From a virus (taxonomy: Duplodnaviria > Heunggongvirae > Uroviricota > Caudoviricetes), in the IMG/VR virus record IMGVR_UViG_2684623189_000005: a stretch of DNA of 64,000 nt. One strand, given 5' to 3'. Under the pieces are notes generated by a model. It saw only the letters and a program-made list of their open reading frames with translations. It made no database searches and was not told the DNA's origin. Both the position numbers and the translations under genes were made by a program. Shown one piece after another: positions 9,557 to 16,815 of the stretch (positions are counted from its first letter, which is position 1; every line of letters begins with the position of its first letter).

Positions 9557-11151
9557 CAGAATCCCTCCAGCATACGGGCCGCCTGACGACGACGGCGTGA
9601 GCTTGCCTTCACCGGCCCTTTGTTAATTTCACGGCTGGCGAAATACGCCAGCGCCAGTGCGATGGCTGAATCCCCGTGGCGTTTACCACCGTCAGCCTTT
9701 GCTTTTGAGCGTTGCTCCGGTACGCGGGGGACACCGTTCACCACCTGAACGGCCCGCAGGTCATCCAGTGTGTCTTCATCCTTTGGTAAGTCCACCAGGT
9801 TACCGTCTTCCAGTGCAGCTTTGACCGGAGGCATATGCTCCCGGTACCAGCCTTCGGTTGGCATCACCTGCTGAACCCGGCTGGAGCCGTAGCGCTGCAT
9901 GGCGTATTCAGCCAGATAGGCACCATTACCACGGGCATCAAACGCTGCACCCAGCAGACCGGGCAGGCCATCCATCAGATACCAGGTGATTTGCTCCTGC
10001 TGTCTGAACGGCACGTTACGCAGCTCCAGTACGAATGGCACGCGTCGTACCAGGTTCTTCTCCTGCAGCAGGGGATAGTCCACCGACAAATCACCGCTAC
10101 GGCCAAAGTCGCGCCCCAGGAAAGAGCGGGCATCAGTGGGGAGTGCCTCCAGCAAGGGTTTCAGATACTCATCAAGCCAGTCCTGCGTCTCGCGGAAGCG
10201 AACCTCATCAGACAGCAGTTCATAACCTTCCTTGCAGGTCAGACGCAATACCGGCGTATCAGCGGACATGCGGGACTCTATCAGGGCACGGGACAGCCAG
10301 GCACCGCCACCGTTGGCCGGAATACAGTCAAGCTCTTCGGATGCGCCGGCACCGTAGAATTTGTACACCGATGCCATCCAGGCTTGCTCGGATGCCTCCG
10401 ACCATTCCTTCCCGGTGCGCAGACAGACGCGCCGGAACAGCCCCTCAGATACGGCTTCCCGGAAAGTGATGCGATGTATGCTGCCTCCCTGACGTCCGGC
10501 ACGGATATCCCCGATAAGCGTATTGAACGGATTGTCGTCACCGTCATGGGTGGAGATAACGCGTACCTTTCCCCCCCAGATAAGCATCGCCAGCGCCGCT
10601 TTCAGCAGTTCGTCCAGTTGCTCATGGAACGCCGCTTCGTCGATAACAATAATACCCTGACGGCCACGCAGGTTAGACGGGCGGCTGGAGAGCGCAACAA
10701 TACGAAAGCCGGAGTCAGGAAATTTGATGGTGTAAGTCTTGATGTGTTTGTCGTCGTCGTCCTCTTCCCAGAATCCTTCTTCAATTTCACTGGCCGCATA
10801 GTTGAATGCCCGTGCCCACATCGCACACGCCTGAATGTATTCGACGGTCATGTCCTGGTTATAAGCGATGTAATACACATTCATCCCGCCTGCTGGCGCA
10901 GAAGAGGCGGCGGTCAGTACGTTATCGGATGCCTCAGCCCATGTAATACCGGTACGACGGCTCTTTTCTATCACCTTAAGCGGAGAGGTGTCTGCCACCC
11001 AGCGCTGCTGGTAAGGCAACAGAACGGGAGGGGCATCCAGCGCCGAGGTATCAGGCAAAACGGGAGCAAGGTTATTCCTCCCGTCCATGGGACTCATCCC
11101 TTCGGGGCCGCCGCCAGCGGCGTTTAAAATCACTCCGGATGATTTTGTCAT
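9556..11151 (-). CDS. terminase large subunit (Mu gp28-like)
   Basis: 531 aa; start overlaps stop of the upstream small-subunit-like gene. Confidence 0.7.
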   Translation of the reverse strand: MTKSSGVILNAAGGGPEGMSPMDGRNNLAPVLPDTSALDAPPVLLPYQQRWVADTSPLKVIEKSRRTGITWAEASDNVLTAASSAPAGGMNVYYIAYNQDMTVEYIQACAMWARAFNYAASEIEEGFWEEDDDDKHIKTYTIKFPDSGFRIVALSSRPSNLRGRQGIIVIDEAAFHEQLDELLKAALAMLIWGGKVRVISTHDGDDNPFNTLIGDIRAGRQGGSIHRITFREAVSEGLFRRVCLRTGKEWSEASEQAWMASVYKFYGAGASEELDCIPANGGGAWLSRALIESRMSADTPVLRLTCKEGYELLSDEVRFRETQDWLDEYLKPLLEALPTDARSFLGRDFGRSGDLSVDYPLLQEKNLVRRVPFVLELRNVPFRQQEQITWYLMDGLPGLLGAAFDARGNGAYLAEYAMQRYGSSRVQQVMPTEGWYREHMPPVKAALEDGNLVDLPKDEDTLDDLRAVQVVNGVPRVPEQRSKAKADGGKRHGDSAIALALAYFASREINKGPVKASSRRRRQAARMLEGF

Positions 11152-11693
11152 GTGGCAATCCCCAGAATCTCGCGACGAAGCGCCTGTACTGCGTCGCTTG
11201 ACAGTCCCCCCTTACGGGCAATTTTCTCGGCGTTGCTGGCTGCCTGCTGCGCTCTGGCCCGTACTTCAGACTGGAACTTTTTGAGGTTGACGGACGCGCG
11301 GGACAGCGTAGCCACATTCTTCGCCACCTTCGACAGCAGGGCCACGCGTTCTTTAGGATCGACTTCGCCTTCTTCCGCCTCCTGCAACTGGACAATACTC
11401 TCGAACAGCTCGGTCTGAATAAGGGCTATCACAGCCTCCGAACGCGCATCCTGATCGTCTGCTGCGCCTTCGGTCAGCATGCGGGCCGCTTCTGTTGCCG
11501 CACGGATAGCACCATAGCGGCGCTCAATCTTCTGTCCATAGCGATGGATAGCGGATTTGCTGATGACGTACCCCCGCTCACGCAGCAGGGACTCCAGCTC
11601 GTTATACCCGCTGAAGCCGGATTCAGTCAGCGCCCGTTCAAGCCAGCGGCGCACGTCTTCCGGCAGCTTTTCTATTGTGCTGCGTCTGGCCAT
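11148..11693 (-). CDS. terminase small subunit-like protein (Mu gp27-like, DUF3486)
   Basis: 181 aa, basic N-terminus and coiled-coil C-terminus; immediately upstream of the large terminase. Confidence 0.55.
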   Translation of the reverse strand: MARRSTIEKLPEDVRRWLERALTESGFSGYNELESLLRERGYVISKSAIHRYGQKIERRYGAIRAATEAARMLTEGAADDQDARSEAVIALIQTELFESIVQLQEAEEGEVDPKERVALLSKVAKNVATLSRASVNLKKFQSEVRARAQQAASNAEKIARKGGLSSDAVQALRREILGIAT

Positions 11694-13703: not shown

Positions 13704-14054
13704 TTAAAGCCCCATCGCAACAGCCAGGCAGACCGCTGCAACAATCAGTGCACGGCGGATTAACGCAGCAGAAAACACCAGGTGAAGGCCGGTCTGTACC
13801 GGGAAACGCCCTTCAGCCATCAGCCTGTCGTCATGTTTCAGGTACTGACCGGGACGGGCTTTGGGGAAGAGCGAACGGTCAAGCCAGTAACCCAGCACTG
13901 CTGCCAGCGTGATGAGTGCCAGCTTGTAGATCACAACAGGCAGCTGCTGTGGTGAGACCAGAGCGATGGTGCCCAGCAACAGCACTGAGGTCAGCAGCCA
14001 GCCGCTGAGGCGAGGTTTTTTAACAGGGGGAATGAATTTTTTCAGGTTTTTCAT
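13704..14054 (-). CDS. putative holin-like membrane protein (3 predicted TM segments)
   Basis: ATG at 14052-14054 preceded by GAGGAG; MKNLKKF... with three hydrophobic segments; first gene of the lysis cluster. Confidence 0.45.
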   Translation of the reverse strand: MKNLKKFIPPVKKPRLSGWLLTSVLLLGTIALVSPQQLPVVIYKLALITLAAVLGYWLDRSLFPKARPGQYLKHDDRLMAEGRFPVQTGLHLVFSAALIRRALIVAAVCLAVAMGL

Positions 14055-14184
14055 GTGTGTCTCCTCGTTTGGTGGAGACAGCATCACAAATACAGGGCGC
14101 AAAGGATTTTAAAGCGCGTTAAGAGAGCCGGGGATACGGGATGTGCAGGATAAACGATGAATTATTCACAGAGGAGAATACGAT

Positions 14185-14661
14185 ATGACGCACACACTGA
14201 ATCCGGTCATCACTGTCACTGTGTCCGGTCCTGTGGGCAGCGGTAAAAGTTACGTACTGGCGCGGATAGAAGAGATGGTGAAACAGGAACTCGGAAACAG
14301 CGTCATTGTCGATGCTGCTGACGTGGAGAATGAGCGCCGTATGAATGGCGAAGATCTGACGACCTGGCAGAAGCCACGGGGTGGCACAGTGATCAGGCTA
14401 GAGGAATACACGGGACAGGGCCTGTTGTCATACGGCGAGGAGCGTATCTGTCGGACGAATGAGCTGCTGGATGTTATATGCCCCACGGGCCGGCAACCCT
14501 GGATACTGCCCGATGCACTGCATGCCACCATTGCGGCACTGATGACAGTTTACGATCAGGAGCTGCTCATGAAGGAGTTACGTAAACTCACCGGTCAGCC
14601 AACAGAATGTTGTTCGTCTCCGAAGTACGGCAAACAGGAAAACGCCCCGGATAATCCTTAA
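14185..14661 (+). CDS. hypothetical P-loop protein (Walker A GPVGSGKS; possible small nucleotide kinase/NTPase)
   Basis: 158 aa, strong SD GAGGAG before ATG; Walker A motif near N-terminus; transcribed divergently from the late operon; no named family recognised. Confidence 0.5.
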   Translation: MTHTLNPVITVTVSGPVGSGKSYVLARIEEMVKQELGNSVIVDAADVENERRMNGEDLTTWQKPRGGTVIRLEEYTGQGLLSYGEERICRTNELLDVICPTGRQPWILPDALHATIAALMTVYDQELLMKELRKLTGQPTECCSSPKYGKQENAPDNP

Positions 14662-14680
14662 GATACCTCCTGAACAGAAA

Positions 14681-14696
14681 CAGCCCTGAAGGGCTG
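14681..14696. terminator. bidirectional stem-loop terminator between convergent genes
   Basis: CAGCCCTGAAGGGCTG hairpin lies between the stops at 14659-14661 (plus) and 14699-14701 (minus), with A/T runs on both sides. Confidence 0.5.
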
Positions 14697-14698
14697 CA

Positions 14699-15286
14699 CT
14701 AAAAAAAGAAGTGTATTATTGCCCAAACAGCTATAACGATGATTCCCAGCCCAAGAGCCGATTCTAACTTATCTTTGGCAGTCATTTTTACTGTTGTAGC
14801 GGGCGCAGGTAAGTCTTGCTGCTGTGGATTTTCTGTTAGTTGTTTACGAGAAGAAACATCGCCCCTATTAGTTTGCTTCATGTTGATTACAGATGCGTTA
14901 TGGGCATTATCAGCAGCAATTGACTGAAGTTTTACAAAAGTTTTTGAATCTGTTTTAGCCAGAAGTAACCTATTTCCCGTAAACATTGCCTTAAAAGTGA
15001 TAGTTTTTTTCGTCTTGTCCGCCGCACCAAGCAAACCTCCAATGACCAACCCTGCACCACCAAAGATTAATCCACCAAGCAAACCTGCGCCTGCCGCCTT
15101 ACCTATACGGCTTTCCTCTTCACTATCCGCAAGTTCAATCGATAAAAGCTCTTCTTTCAGATTTAATACAATATTTTCAGGAAAGCCTTGTTTTGGTTTT
15201 TTGGCAAACACGATGGTACCGAACCCCATGCTTGCCCACCCTTTAGGAAAACTTCCTGCGATAACCTGAATCCCTGCCATGTTCAT
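14699..15286 (-). CDS. glycine-zipper membrane protein of unknown function
   Basis: About 195 aa; central GAGLLGGLIFGGAGLVIGGLLGAA motif and C-terminal TM LGLGIIVIAVWAIIHFFF; start ambiguous among GTG 15289, ATG 15286 and ATG 15280. Confidence 0.5.
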   Translation of the reverse strand: MNMAGIQVIAGSFPKGWASMGFGTIVFAKKPKQGFPENIVLNLKEELLSIELADSEEESRIGKAAGAGLLGGLIFGGAGLVIGGLLGAADKTKKTITFKAMFTGNRLLLAKTDSKTFVKLQSIAADNAHNASVINMKQTNRGDVSSRKQLTENPQQQDLPAPATTVKMTAKDKLESALGLGIIVIAVWAIIHFFF

Positions 15287-15370
15287 CACCTTTTACATTA
15301 AAATTTCAGAACGCAGCATGATGCCGCCTTTGTCTTTTTTCTGATCCCATGGTAATTCAGCTGTTATTTT

Positions 15371-16357
15371 CTATTTAAGAATAAAACGGTATTTACTGTC
15401 AGGAGTGCTTTGCTGATCAAGTAGCAGTGAACGACATGGAGCAGTCAAAACCCGAGCATAACTACCATCAGGGCTTATGTTAATGTAACAAACCTTGCCC
15501 TTAACACTATAATTTTCGGGGACGGATGCCTTTGCTGATACAGTAAATTTAAGGGTATGCCAGCCCGTTTTTTGCTTGTAGCTTGAAACCGAATGGAAAT
15601 CATCTGAGTACTTATTTAACCCTAGAAACATGCTGCGCAGTGCGGGGATGGAATCTTCTATTATTTTATCGTTGGTTTTAATGTTAAAAACGCTGGTTTC
15701 AGTAGAAGCTACTGCTTTGGCATTTCCCCATTTACCAGCGAACACAATCATTCCCACGAAAAATATTGCTACAAGAACTAACACTCCCCCCAACACTACT
15801 ACATGAGGCTTCCGGCTTCTGGTTGGTACAGTTGCGACTGATTTTGCACCGCTTTCCGATGGAGGTGATAGAGTTTTACTCTCATCACGAATATTCAGCA
15901 GATCATCAAAATAACCAAACACAGCCTGCAACTGCTCTTTGTCTAGGCCTTTAAGATGGGTTGTACCGAAATGCTTCAGACAGTATCTGTCACGGTCAAG
16001 ACGATACCCAGGGTCAGTAAGCGCCATTATTTTGCTGACCAGAAGATTACAGTCCTTCATATTCTGGATCTGTTGTGCATATCTCTGAAGGATCTCAACC
16101 GCACCATGATAATCAGCCGCAGTCATTTCATTAACTGTTTTGGTATTAAGTTTCGTGTGGATCGTCATCCATAGCTCGCGCTTACTTTCCCCCAGATCAA
16201 CCAATTCATCCATCAATCTGTGTAAATCGCGTTTTTGCAGCAACGAAATTGGTTGCTGGGCCGAAGGAAGTATGTCAGCAGAATAGTTATGAATGGTAAC
16301 ATCACCGCTGACAACGTTACCCACATCCCCGTTAACTGTTTGCTTCTCTTTACTCAT
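15371..16357 (-). CDS. bitopic membrane protein of unknown function, translationally coupled to the repressor
   Basis: 328 aa; ATG overlaps the repressor stop (ATGA); single TM VVVLGGVLVLVAIFFVGMIVFAG separates a 170-aa N-domain from a 110-aa C-domain. Confidence 0.6.
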   Translation of the reverse strand: MSKEKQTVNGDVGNVVSGDVTIHNYSADILPSAQQPISLLQKRDLHRLMDELVDLGESKRELWMTIHTKLNTKTVNEMTAADYHGAVEILQRYAQQIQNMKDCNLLVSKIMALTDPGYRLDRDRYCLKHFGTTHLKGLDKEQLQAVFGYFDDLLNIRDESKTLSPPSESGAKSVATVPTRSRKPHVVVLGGVLVLVAIFFVGMIVFAGKWGNAKAVASTETSVFNIKTNDKIIEDSIPALRSMFLGLNKYSDDFHSVSSYKQKTGWHTLKFTVSAKASVPENYSVKGKVCYINISPDGSYARVLTAPCRSLLLDQQSTPDSKYRFILK

Positions 16358-16815
16358 CTTCTCTTGGTATTTTTGTTCATTATTCCACCTGTTCCTATGG
16401 TTACGTTACCTTTGATAACATTCCCCAGAACATCTCCATGAATAACCTGTTCCGCCCGTTCTCTGGAGGAGCCAGTAGTCAAGGCCGACAAAACTGAACC
16501 TTTGACCTGTAATGGTGCCTGCCGGTAGTGCTGCAGTAACTCCATTTCATCACGTGATAAAGTTATACCTGATGACTCCCCGGTAAGAATGAACTGTACA
16601 TTGGCCCCAATTCTTGCAAAGGCTGCAAGTAACTCACCTCCGGGAACAGCAACCCCTCGTTCATATTTCCCCCACATTTCTCTTGAAACGCCACAAAGGG
16701 CTGCTACTTCAGCCTGCTTGAGTGATAACCGCGAACGCTCAGCTTTGAACCGCGACGCGCAAAGAGAATCAAAATTCACATAAACCTCATTGACAATGAG
16801 AACAATAGTTCTCAT
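16354..16815 (-). CDS. phage repressor, XRE-family HTH
   Basis: 153 aa with HTH segment LKQAEVAALCGVSREMWGKYERG; divergent from the early operon; apparently leaderless ATG. Confidence 0.65.
   Translation of the reverse strand: MRTIVLIVNEVYVNFDSLCASRFKAERSRLSLKQAEVAALCGVSREMWGKYERGVAVPGGELLAAFARIGANVQFILTGESSGITLSRDEMELLQHYRQAPLQVKGSVLSALTTGSSRERAEQVIHGDVLGNVIKGNVTIGTGGIMNKNTKRR

What the first reader, a model, noticed from the sequence alone, without database searches (positions are those of the whole stretch)
14185..14661. Orphan P-loop protein at the boundary of the Mu-like late operon
A 158-aa ORF with a near-N-terminal Walker A motif (GPVGSGKS) and a strong SD is transcribed divergently from the late lysis/structural operon and convergently with the repressor-linked membrane genes, sharing their hairpin terminator. 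Small P-loop proteins of this size could be nucleotide kinases or NTPases. Its placement next to the candidate membrane module raises the possibility of a three-component system, but it could equally be an independent phage gene.
Basis: partly seen in the sequence, partly recalled or inferred. Interest (0 to 1): 0.5.

Follow-up and report, generated by a model that had tools for sequence, protein, structure and literature searches.

The report
Truncated phage mini-P-loop accessory gene
The ORF is a real gene of a BcepMu-like E. coli prophage: a shortened copy of an uncharacterised, phage-only protein family whose only widely conserved part is a 75-residue "mini" phosphate-binding (Walker A) module, and it is not tied to the two neighbouring membrane genes.

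Summary
Observation confirmed. ORF 14185-14661 (+), 158 aa, has Walker A GPVGSGKS and a strong SD. It diverges from the holin/late operon and converges on the membrane genes.

The three-component idea is refuted. The gene is in 569 of 5426 complete E. coli genomes. The two membrane genes occur in only 96, as one near-clonal block. The 328-aa membrane gene plus repressor also occur without the P-loop gene.

The gene's conserved partner is the holin. It sits about 130 bp upstream and divergent in every BcepMu-like prophage examined, including 32-57% identical homologues. It is usually followed by a Dam methylase module.

The window copy lacks the last ~85-residue module of the 242/247-aa form. 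The mosaic junction lies in a Pro-rich linker at the stop codon, where GC falls from 56% to about 42%.

No kinase, ABC, KAP or defence family is matched. RefSeq's "ABC transporter ATPase" rests on the Walker A region only. It belongs to PHROG 3787, function unknown.

Only residues 1-75 are conserved widely: beta1, Walker A, alpha1, beta2, beta3, invariant Glu. This module also exists as stand-alone 70-90-aa phage proteins, and as a separate gene at the same locus in one prophage.

The biochemical function remains inferred. The likeliest is an oligomeric phosphate/nucleotide-binding accessory protein with swappable helical adaptor modules.

The parts
14170..14176 (+). Shine-Dalgarno AGAGGAG, 8 nt before the ATG
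   Evidence: Sequence read directly. Conserved in E. coli alleles and as GGAGGA in 53-57% identical homologues.
14185..14661 (+). 158-aa ORF. Truncated allele of PHROG 3787. RefSeq WP_000149906.1, named 'ABC transporter ATPase'.
   Evidence: (E 2.1e-107, profile positions 1-157 of 242). dN/dS 0.25-0.57.
14185..14412 (+). N-terminal mini-P-loop module (residues 1-76): beta1, Walker A, alpha1, beta2, ER loop, W..P, beta3, Glu74. The only part conserved across the wider family.
   Evidence: The exhaustive profile search matches positions 1-75 only in distant relatives. Alignments A3/A4. Stand-alone 70-90-aa homologues end at the invariant Glu.
14227..14250 (+). Walker A motif GPVGSGKS (residues 15-22)
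   Evidence: G20 and K21 invariant, G15 and S22 >=90% conserved in 45 sequences. All weak Pfam, NCBIfam and PDB hits anchor here.
14404..14406 (+). Codon of Glu74. Near-invariant acidic residue at the end of the hydrophobic strand TVIRLEE, a candidate Walker B-like residue.
   Evidence: Invariant in A3, >=90% in A4. The Walker B reading is an inference from the position of Walker B at the tip of beta3 (PMC7758060).
14431..14592 (+). Helical module B (residues ~83-136; RICRTNELL...PWILPDALHATIAALMTVYDQELLMKELRKL). Recurs at the C-terminus of distant family members and in a separate gene in L046.
   Evidence: AF2 helices 83-98, 110-122 and 125-136. Visible in P0034, P0036, P0057 and P0064. L046 second ORF.
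14641..14661 (+). Mosaic junction in the Pro-rich linker. Homology to the 242/247-aa alleles decays here and ends at the stop codon. The last ~85-residue module C is missing.
   Evidence: PhiKM megablast match ends at window 14649. DNA alignment. Protein alignment. GC drops from 0.56 to ~0.40-0.44 at 14650.
14680..14697 (-). GC-rich hairpin. Intrinsic terminator of the convergent membrane-gene transcript, with no U-tract for the plus-strand gene. Belongs to the incoming module.
   Evidence: minus strand -19.8 kcal/mol, z -3.8; plus strand -12.6 kcal/mol, z -2.3.
14055..14184 (.). 130-bp divergent control region shared with the holin. Contains the conserved dyad TTAAAGCGCGTTAA (14109-14122) and a hairpin over the holin SD (14058-14080). 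No consensus sigma-70 promoter was found for the P-loop gene.
   Evidence: Alignment of 7 loci. Promoter scan. Fold.

Best explanation
SHOWN. The ORF is a genuine accessory gene of a BcepMu-like (Bcepmuvirus-type, transposable) E. coli prophage. It belongs to the uncharacterised phage family PHROG 3787.

Its fixed place is the first gene divergent from the holin/late operon. It sits at the edge of the variable cargo and immunity region that separates the late and early operons.

The window carries a derived, C-terminally truncated allele. A recombination that swapped in a low-GC block cut the gene in the linker after its second module. That block holds the terminator, a 196-aa membrane protein, a 328-aa membrane protein and a 153-aa HTH repressor. 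The last ~85-residue module was removed.

The protein is modular. A 75-residue N-terminal module (beta1, Walker A, alpha1, beta2, short helix/loop, beta3, invariant Glu) is followed by interchangeable small helical modules. In other phages the N-module is a free-standing 70-90-aa protein. In one BcepMu-like prophage it is a separate gene whose stop overlaps the start of the gene encoding the remaining modules.

INFERRED. The N-module is a minimal phosphate/nucleotide-binding unit. The Walker A Lys/Ser and Glu74 would hold a Mg-nucleotide or another phospho-ligand. Because it has only three of the five or more beta-alpha elements of a normal P-loop domain, it probably works as an oligomer or together with its helical modules. 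Those modules would act as adaptors that bind a phage or host partner.

It is a dispensable host-interaction or regulatory gene. It is neither a nucleotide-metabolism enzyme nor a transporter ATPase, and it acts independently of the membrane genes.

The confidence of 0.55 is for the whole statement. The shown part (identity, truncation, modularity, independence) is about 0.9. The inferred phosphate/nucleotide-binding mechanism is about 0.35.
For: Identity and context:
- 100% DNA identity to prophages of E. coli CE10 and IAI39. PhiKM, classified as Bcepmuvirus, carries the 242-aa form.
- PHROG 3787 match at E 2.1e-107.

Synteny with the holin:
- Seen in every BcepMu-like locus examined: 22 IMG/VR contigs, ST131-type prophages, a 53%-identical 255-aa homologue, Citrobacter braakii at 57%, and an 88-aa stand-alone form at 32%.

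Independence from the membrane genes:
-.

Truncation and junction:
-.
- Other truncation points give 128-, 141- and 182-aa forms.

Coding status:
- dN/dS 0.25-0.57.

N-module as the conserved, autonomous unit:
- An exhaustive profile search of 1.84 billion representatives finds 62 clusters. Distant ones match positions 1-75 only.
- Stand-alone proteins end at the invariant Glu.
- The split gene pair in L046 has its second ORF equal to residues 96-261 of P0057, E 2e-38.
- The best BFVD match is an 82-aa viral protein, TM 0.70, prob 1.0.

Phosphate-binding reading:
- G20 and K21 are invariant. G15, S22, E50 and E74 are >=90% conserved.
- Sub-threshold hits from 24 of 45 members go to many P-loop families through this region.
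- PDB profile hits cover the strand, P-loop and helix of ABC NBDs, cytidylate kinase, the designed 'phosphate-loop protein' 6c2u, and the designed ATPase 9jix over positions 8-73.

Phage accessory context of the stand-alone forms:
-.
Against: - No biochemical or genetic data exist for any member (no paper found).
- A three-strand module is below the accepted minimum of five beta-loop-alpha elements for a P-loop domain (PMC7758060). Nucleotide binding may therefore not occur, or may need partners.
- Some relatives have GKN instead of GK[ST].
- Frequent truncations and fairly high dN/dS are also compatible with a gene drifting towards loss in prophages.
- No promoter was identified, so timing of expression is unknown.
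Confidence: 0.55

Rival explanations
1. Three-component system. The P-loop protein is the cytoplasmic NTPase partner of the two membrane proteins (for example an exclusion or abortive-infection module) and is co-regulated with them through the shared terminator.
For: Adjacency and convergent arrangement in the window. In E. coli complete genomes every copy of the 196-aa gene lies next to the 158-aa allele, 96 of 96.
Against: - Those 96 copies are one >=99% identical block, so they count as a single evolutionary event.
- About 470 genomes have the P-loop gene with other neighbours.
- The 328-aa gene plus repressor occur with no P-loop gene (L005) or with an unrelated partner (L042).
- The genes are on opposite strands.
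- The junction and GC break show that the membrane block was pasted onto the 3' end of a pre-existing gene.
- There is no PADLOC hit.
Confidence: 0.04
2. Conventional small P-loop enzyme: a nucleotide/nucleoside kinase, polynucleotide kinase or ABC-type ATPase subunit, as the RefSeq names 'ABC transporter ATPase' and 'KAP family NTPase' imply.
For: Canonical Walker A. Size is similar to small kinases. There are weak hits to ABC_tran, cytidylate, uridine and guanylate kinases, KAP and Zeta toxin.
Against: - Every hit is below the curated cut-off and covers only residues ~4-55.
- There is no ABC signature, Q-loop or H-loop, and no LID or NMP-binding region in the sequence.
- Residues 77-158 are predicted all-helical, and they are replaced or absent in relatives.
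- Stand-alone members are only 70-75 aa.
- The family is restricted to phages and prophages in accessory positions.
Confidence: 0.08
3. Decaying remnant. The 158-aa allele is a non-functional leftover of the 242/247-aa gene, kept only because it lies next to the essential late promoter.
For: - Loss of the C-terminal module and several independent truncations, including a 182-aa form with the core of the N-module deleted.
- Many short fragments in databases.
- Relaxed dN/dS of 0.5-0.95 in some close pairs, based on very few substitutions.
Against: - The ORF is intact in >=107 complete genomes at >=99% identity. A recombinant 158-aa allele (SCU-101) and a 17%-diverged 158-aa allele (P0008) are also intact.
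- The cut falls precisely in an inter-module linker and leaves the N-module and module B whole.
- 141-aa forms with the same two modules exist, and stand-alone N-modules are common. Module C is therefore evidently optional.
- dN/dS of the N-module is 0.15-0.33 in the more diverged pairs.
Confidence: 0.15
4. Anti-defence or signal-sequestering protein. The mini-P-loop binds a nucleotide-derived immune signal or a host defence protein. The variable helical modules track different targets.
For: - The gene is phage-only, small and dispensable, with rapidly shuffled modules.
- In 2 of 9 independent contexts examined the gene lies within about 0.3-4.5 kb of Acb2/Tad1-hairpin genes. One of these contexts also holds a (weak) Sequestin-domain gene.
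- In BcepMu-like prophages it heads a block that usually includes a Dam methylase, a classic anti-restriction function.
Against: The association is weak and not tested statistically. Other contexts, between HNH and terminase or next to a ligase, show no such neighbours. There is no similarity to known sponges. No experimental data exist.
Confidence: 0.15

Closest known systems
PHROG 3787 (phage protein family, function unknown), e.g. the 242-aa hypothetical protein XRL29432.1 of Escherichia phage PhiKM
   Same: Full-length HMM match at E 2.1e-107. 92% identity to PhiKM over residues 1-157. Same position divergent from the holin.
   Different: The window allele stops at profile position 157 of 242 and lacks the C-terminal module. 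The downstream neighbours are membrane genes rather than Dam.
P-loop NTPases of the kinase-GTPase/SIMIBI type (e.g. YGR205w 1odf, Cfd1 6g2g, GPN-loop GTPase 5hci, ParA/FlhG, thymidylate and cytidylate kinases)
   Different: Only three beta elements are conserved, against a minimum of five (PMC7758060). There is no LID, substrate or switch region. No family HMM reaches its threshold. Stand-alone members are 70-75 aa.
ABC transporter nucleotide-binding domains (the source of the RefSeq product name)
   Same: Walker A plus the following helix and the 'G-x-V-x-ID' strand resemble residues 8-46.
   Different: PF00005 scores 13.6 bits against a cut-off of 25. There is no Q-loop, LSGGQ signature, Walker B/D-loop or H-loop. 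The length is 158 aa rather than about 200-250. No permease partner is present.
Laboratory-made minimal P-loop proteins (phosphate-loop prototypes, PDB 6c2u; de novo ATPase PL2x4_2, PDB 9jix)
   Same: Comparable size and beta-(P-loop)-alpha-beta organisation. 9jix is the only PDB entry hit by the whole-family profile, over positions 8-73. The prototypes bind phospho-ligands as oligomers (PMC10119929; bioRxiv 10.1101/2020.07.30.228619, as listed).
   Different: Those are artificial constructs. E-values of 0.001-0.03 are not significant homology. No binding data exist for the phage family.
Variable cargo ('moron') regions of temperate phages, such as the cargo hotspots of P2-like phages (from general knowledge, not tested here)
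   Same: The gene sits at the edge of a slot whose content differs between otherwise near-identical prophages: Dam, DUF2441, membrane proteins, unrelated hypotheticals.
   Different: The P-loop gene itself is not variable cargo. It is the conserved gene that flanks the slot, and only its 3' end is eroded by exchanges.

Membership tests
PHROG 3787 | Significant match to the family HMM | tested here: met
   E 2.1e-107, 359 bits, residues 1-157 on profile positions 1-157 of 242. Distant and stand-alone relatives hit the same PHROG through positions ~1-75.
ABC transporter ATPase (PF00005) | Score above the Pfam gathering threshold | tested here: not met
   13.6 bits against a cut-off of 25, residues 4-49 only. 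NCBIfam ABC equivalogs score 11-15 bits against cut-offs of 266-875.
ABC transporter ATPase (PF00005) | ABC signature (LSGGQ), Q-loop and H-loop after Walker A | tested here: not met
   No SGG or LSGGQ-like motif in the 158-aa sequence read directly. Residues 77-158 are predicted helical and are replaceable.
Canonical P-loop NTPase domain | Walker A GxxxxGK[ST] between beta1 and alpha1 | tested here: met
   GPVGSGKS at residues 15-22. G20 and K21 are invariant in 45 sequences.
Canonical P-loop NTPase domain | Walker B Asp/Glu at the tip of a hydrophobic strand (beta3 or beta4) | tested here: inconclusive
   Glu74 at the end of TVIRLEE is invariant or near-invariant. Its spatial position next to the P-loop is not shown, because no confident fold is available.
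Canonical P-loop NTPase domain | Three-layer alpha/beta sandwich with at least five beta-loop-alpha elements (PMC7758060) | tested here: not met
Small nucleotide kinases (thymidylate, cytidylate, guanylate and uridine kinase, AAA_18, Zeta toxin) | Family HMM above threshold, with LID and NMP/substrate region | tested here: not met
   Best scores: guanylate kinase 12.9 bits against 263, uridine kinase 12.5 against 180, Zeta toxin 12.6 against 22.3. All are confined to residues ~7-58.
KAP family NTPase (RefSeq name of some fragments) | PF07693 above threshold. KAP NTPases carry transmembrane helices inserted in the P-loop domain (general knowledge). | tested here: not met
   14.6 bits against a cut-off of 20, residues 4-43 only. 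No hydrophobic insert is visible in the sequence.
Known anti-phage defence systems (PADLOC-DB) | Significant match to a defence-protein model | tested here: not met
   Best E is 0.007 (SngB, 13 bits), in the Walker A region. Neither membrane protein has a significant hit.
Three-gene module with the 196-aa and 328-aa membrane proteins | Co-occurrence of the three genes across independent lineages | tested here: not met
   569 genomes carry the P-loop gene and 96 carry the trio, all as one near-identical block. The 328-aa gene plus repressor occur without the P-loop gene or with unrelated partners.

The most novel reading that the evidence does not exclude
Phages carry a natural, autonomous 'mini P-loop': a 70-75-residue beta-(Walker A)-alpha-beta-beta-Glu module. 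This is well below the five-element minimum of P-loop NTPases. It would fold and bind phospho-ligands as an oligomer. It is deployed alone, split, or fused to swappable helical adaptor modules. This would make it a living counterpart of the laboratory 'P-loop prototypes', possibly used to bind nucleotide signals or to switch a partner protein during infection.
Probability: 0.2. Interest if true: 0.7.

Novelty: new variant of a known kind. Interest (0 to 1): 0.35.

Why it matters
For this locus, the result removes a tempting but wrong 'three-gene system'. It also corrects a misleading product name ('ABC transporter ATPase') that RefSeq attaches to the alleles sampled here; the gene family is present in 569 complete E. 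coli genomes.

More generally, it defines a small phage-restricted family: 62 clusters among 1.84 billion representatives, with no Pfam model. Its conserved core is a Walker-A module of only ~75 residues that also exists as a free-standing protein. If that module really binds nucleotides, it would be a natural test case for how little of the P-loop fold is needed for function. It would also be a new building block of phage accessory proteins.

The gene also marks a recombination hotspot. The cargo and immunity slot of BcepMu-like prophages begins inside its 3' end. This is useful for annotating cargo in these widespread E. coli prophages, including those of ST131.

Tried and rejected
- Pfam, NCBIfam, PADLOC and PHROGs scans of the protein, its long form and 45 relatives gave only PHROG 3787 and sub-threshold Walker-A hits.
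- AF2 of the 247-aa form with a shallow alignment was unusable, pLDDT 45.
- AF2 of the window protein with 45 diverse sequences gave pLDDT 70.9 but no paired strands.
- PDB sequence-profile searches gave only Walker-A-level hits.
- tblastn against 50,697 phage records found only PhiKM for the P-loop protein and nothing for either membrane protein.
- The genome-contig scan was swamped by the generic SGPxGSGKS pattern and yielded one locus. The diverse alignment was too variable for pattern scans.
- The literature search by accession and PHROG id found nothing. The ST131 'tailocin' paper concerns a different, P2-like region.
- No sigma-70 consensus promoter was found for the gene. I considered a bidirectional Mor-dependent promoter but have no evidence for it.
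- I considered that the antisense 93-aa ORF (14250-14531) might be the real gene. I rejected this because conservation, the SD and the synonymous-substitution pattern all follow the plus-strand frame.
Full report
**1. What is in the sequence**

The ORF is real and lies exactly where reported: 14185-14661 (+), 158 aa. GPVGSGKS occupies residues 15-22, and AGAGGAG sits 8 nt before the ATG.

To its left, on the minus strand, runs a lysis/late operon. It comprises the holin (PF13272, E 1.6e-41; start at 14054, as in RefSeq), an SLT transglycosylase, two further lysis-region proteins, and then the terminase, portal and later genes.

To its right, also on the minus strand, lie three genes that converge on the ORF:
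- a 196-aa membrane protein (14699-15289);
- a 328-aa membrane protein (15371-16357);
- a 153-aa HTH repressor (16354-16815).

Beyond them a Ner-like gene starts the early operon on the plus strand, which includes the transposase, an ExeA-family protein at the MuB position, Gam and Mor.

A GC-rich hairpin at 14680-14697 lies between the two convergent stop codons. Only the minus-strand RNA has a U-rich tail after it. It is therefore the membrane genes' terminator, not a symmetric bidirectional one.

**2. Where the window comes from**

The 3.3-kb region is 100% identical to prophages in E. coli CE10, IAI39 and many other strains. Escherichia phage PhiKM, classified in Bcepmuvirus, shares the left part.

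The layout is that of BcepMu-like transposable phages. The late genes run outward on one side, the early genes run outward on the other, and immunity plus cargo sit in the middle. The position of the ORF is thus the normal internal boundary of this phage type, not a prophage end.

**3. Family assignment**

The only significant match is PHROG 3787, function unknown. The match has E 2.1e-107 and covers profile positions 1-157 of 242.

Pfam, NCBIfam and PADLOC give only sub-threshold hits. These go to many unrelated P-loop families: AAA_30, AAA_22, KAP, CobW, T2SSE, ABC_tran, Zeta toxin, and guanylate and uridine kinases. All are confined to residues ~4-58. Scanning 45 family members individually gives the same scatter.

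RefSeq's product names ('ABC transporter ATPase', and 'KAP family NTPase' for fragments) therefore rest on the Walker A strand-loop-helix alone. The ABC signature, Q-loop and H-loop are absent.

**4. The window allele is truncated**

PhiKM and most E. coli prophages encode a 242- or 247-aa protein.

Nucleotide homology to the window runs from upstream of the holin to about 14649-14660. It decays within the last six codons: KQE|NAPDNP* in the window against KQE|HIPVN...QPPRFF... in the long form. The cut lies in a Pro-rich linker.

GC content falls from 0.56 inside the gene to 0.40-0.44 from 14650 through the membrane genes.

A low-GC block was therefore recombined onto the 3' end of a pre-existing gene. 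The block holds the terminator, the 196-aa gene, the 328-aa gene and the 153-aa repressor. It removed the last ~85-residue module.

Other alleles are cut elsewhere:
- 128 aa in strain A24;
- 141 aa in L040;
- 182 aa, with an internal deletion of residues 52-124.

SCU-101 carries a recombinant 158-aa allele. The 3' part of this gene is the left border of a recombination hotspot.

**5. Test of the three-component idea**

In 5426 complete E. coli genomes the P-loop gene is present in 569. The two membrane genes together are present in 96. Those 96 are the same genomes that carry the whole 3.3-kb block at >=99% identity. That amounts to one event, clonally and horizontally spread.

The dominant arrangement is holin <- | P-loop(242/247) -> hyp134 <- hyp71 -> Dam -> HTH118 <- | Ner ->. 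It is found in ST131 and in 14 of the 22 IMG/VR loci (15 counting a contig, L033, that ends within the hyp134 gene).

In strain 503025 the 328-aa gene and its repressor are present with no P-loop gene. A DUF2441 gene and an unrelated 203-aa gene take its place. In strain A24 the neighbour of the 328-aa gene is a different, unrelated 182-aa protein.

Three conclusions follow:
- The repressor and the 328-aa gene travel together. Their reading frames overlap by 4 nt.
- The next slot is variable cargo.
- The P-loop gene belongs to the other side, the holin side.

**6. What the gene is linked to**

In every BcepMu-like locus that has the gene, it starts about 130 bp from the holin start and is divergent from it. 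This holds for three diverged relatives:
- a 255-aa homologue, 53% identical in the N-module, followed directly by Dam (L014/L015);
- a 291-aa homologue in Citrobacter braakii, 57% identical (L018);
- an 88-aa stand-alone homologue, 32% identical (L046).

The spacer contains two strongly conserved elements that serve the holin side:
- a near-palindrome, TTAAAGCGCGTTAA (14109-14122);
- an inverted repeat that pairs the holin SD.

No consensus sigma-70 promoter for the P-loop gene was found. When it is expressed is unknown.

**7. Architecture of the family**

An exhaustive profile search of 1.84 billion cluster representatives finds only 62 clusters. Beyond the close E. coli group, similarity is confined to positions 1-75.

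The conserved pattern is a hydrophobic strand, G-x-x-G-x-G-K-[ST], an amphipathic helix ending in G, a second strand, L-x-x-E-R, W-x-x-P, and a third strand ending in an invariant Glu. G20 and K21 are invariant. G15, S22, I28, G37, E50 and E74 are at least 90% conserved.

This module has two kinds of occurrence:
- It heads proteins of 150-360 aa with different C-terminal parts.
- It is the whole protein in 70-90-aa phage proteins, several of which end exactly at the invariant Glu.

In L046 the module is a separate 88-aa gene whose stop overlaps the start of a 161-aa gene. That second gene equals residues 96-261 of the fused homologue P0057 (E 2e-38).

The window protein consists of the N-module plus 'module B', the helical stretch ...PWILPDALHATIAALMTVYDQELLMKELRKL. 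Module B recurs at the C-terminus of distant members.

The middle modules of relatives match other small PHROGs of unknown function.

The stand-alone forms lie in phage accessory regions:
- between an HNH endonuclease and the small terminase in Acinetobacter and other prophages;
- in a nin-like region two genes from an Acb2/Tad1-hairpin gene;
- next to an NAD-dependent ligase in large phage contigs, one of which also holds Acb2/Tad1 and Sequestin genes.

**8. Fold**

AF2 with a shallow alignment failed, pLDDT 45. With 45 diverse sequences it reached a mean pLDDT of 70.9, about 80 over residues 11-60, but the strands were not paired.

Structure searches gave little:
- Foldseek found nothing in the PDB.
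- The best BFVD hit is an 82-aa viral family member, TM 0.70.
- Sequence profiles hit only the strand, P-loop and helix of ABC NBDs and kinases. They also hit two designed minimal P-loop proteins, 6c2u and 9jix, the latter over positions 8-73.

A canonical P-loop domain needs at least five beta-loop-alpha elements, with the Walker B acid at the tip of beta3 or beta4 (PMC7758060). This family conserves three strands, and the stand-alone members have room for no more.

The defining fold feature is therefore not met as a monomer. The motif pattern (Walker A, plus Glu at the end of the third strand) is what a minimal phosphate/Mg site would need.

**9. Selection**

Nei-Gojobori dN/dS against nine other alleles is 0.25-0.57 overall. 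It is 0.15-0.33 for the N-module in the more diverged pairs.

The frame is under purifying but relaxed selection. This is typical of accessory phage genes and is evidence against a non-coding artefact.

**10. Most likely function and rivals**

Shown: this is a conserved but dispensable accessory gene of BcepMu-like prophages, modular in build and independent of the membrane genes. It is a truncated allele that retains two intact modules.

Inferred (moderate to low confidence): the N-module binds a phosphate-bearing ligand, most simply an NTP-Mg, through K21, S22 and E74. It probably does so as an oligomer or together with its helical modules, which act as adaptors to a partner.

Rivals:
- a true three-gene system (about 0.04, refuted by distribution);
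- a conventional kinase or ABC ATPase (about 0.08, failed family and architecture tests);
- a decaying remnant (about 0.15);
- an anti-defence or signal-binding role (about 0.15; this is a specific version of the main idea, supported only by weak neighbourhood hints).

**11. Novelty and score**

The gene is already in databases (RefSeq, PHROGs) but without function and under a misleading name. No paper mentions it.

As a locus finding it is ordinary: an uncharacterised phage accessory gene, with the proposed system refuted.

The family-level observation is a modestly interesting, untested variant of a very well-known kind. It consists of a phage-restricted Walker-A module of about 75 residues that is free-standing, splittable and fused to shuffled helical modules. 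Interest is 0.35.

Noticed in passing
window 14058-14080 (minus-strand mRNA of the holin): The inverted repeat TGTCTCC-N9-GGAGACA is invariant in seven BcepMu-like loci, including ones only 65-70% identical in the holin protein. On the holin transcript it pairs the Shine-Dalgarno sequence (-14.2 kcal/mol, z -2.1). This may be translational control of holin synthesis.
   Followed up: partly
window 14109-14122: The near-palindrome TTAAAGCGCGTTAA is conserved in all aligned loci, upstream of the holin. It is a candidate binding site for the Mor/C-type late activator of the lysis/late promoter. No sigma-70 promoter was detected for either divergent gene.
   Followed up: partly
window 15371-16815 (minus strand): The 328-aa membrane protein overlaps the HTH repressor by 4 nt and always travels with it (L005, L042). 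Its N-terminal 130 residues weakly resemble the tail-anchored flagellar regulator Flk (NF007987, E 2.9e-12, far below cut-off). Its N-terminus (GDVGNVVSGDVTIHN) repeats a motif found at the repressor's C-terminus (GDVLGNVIKGNVTIG). This could be a repressor-linked membrane partner.
   Followed up: partly
window 14662-15370 and the equivalent slot in L005, L042, L003, L013: The slot between the P-loop gene and the immunity genes is a cargo hotspot. Its content is the 196-aa membrane protein here, DUF2441 plus a 203-aa protein in strain 503025, an unrelated 182-aa protein in A24, hyp134/hyp71/Dam in ST131-type prophages, and other genes in Klebsiella phage KP12. None matched a PADLOC model where tested.
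   Followed up: partly
L046:5001-5749 (metagenomic BcepMu-like prophage): The family is split into an 88-aa N-module gene and an overlapping 161-aa gene that equals the C-terminal two-thirds of fused homologues (E 2e-38). This is a natural domain-fission example.
   Followed up: yes
L010:1180-1596 and L012:6663-6893 (phage contigs with stand-alone homologues): Acb2/Tad1-hairpin genes lie within about 0.3-4.5 kb of the stand-alone mini-P-loop genes; L010 additionally carries a (weak) Sequestin-domain gene at its 1-265 end, some 5.7 kb away. The association was not tested statistically.
   Followed up: no
L001 (E. coli CE10 copy of the same prophage): RefSeq marks several structural genes of the CE10 copy as pseudogenes with internal stops (gp25-like baseplate protein, DUF3486 small terminase). 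An IS3 element interrupts the early region. The window's small-terminase ORF (11148-11693) is intact, so copies of this prophage differ in integrity.
   Followed up: no
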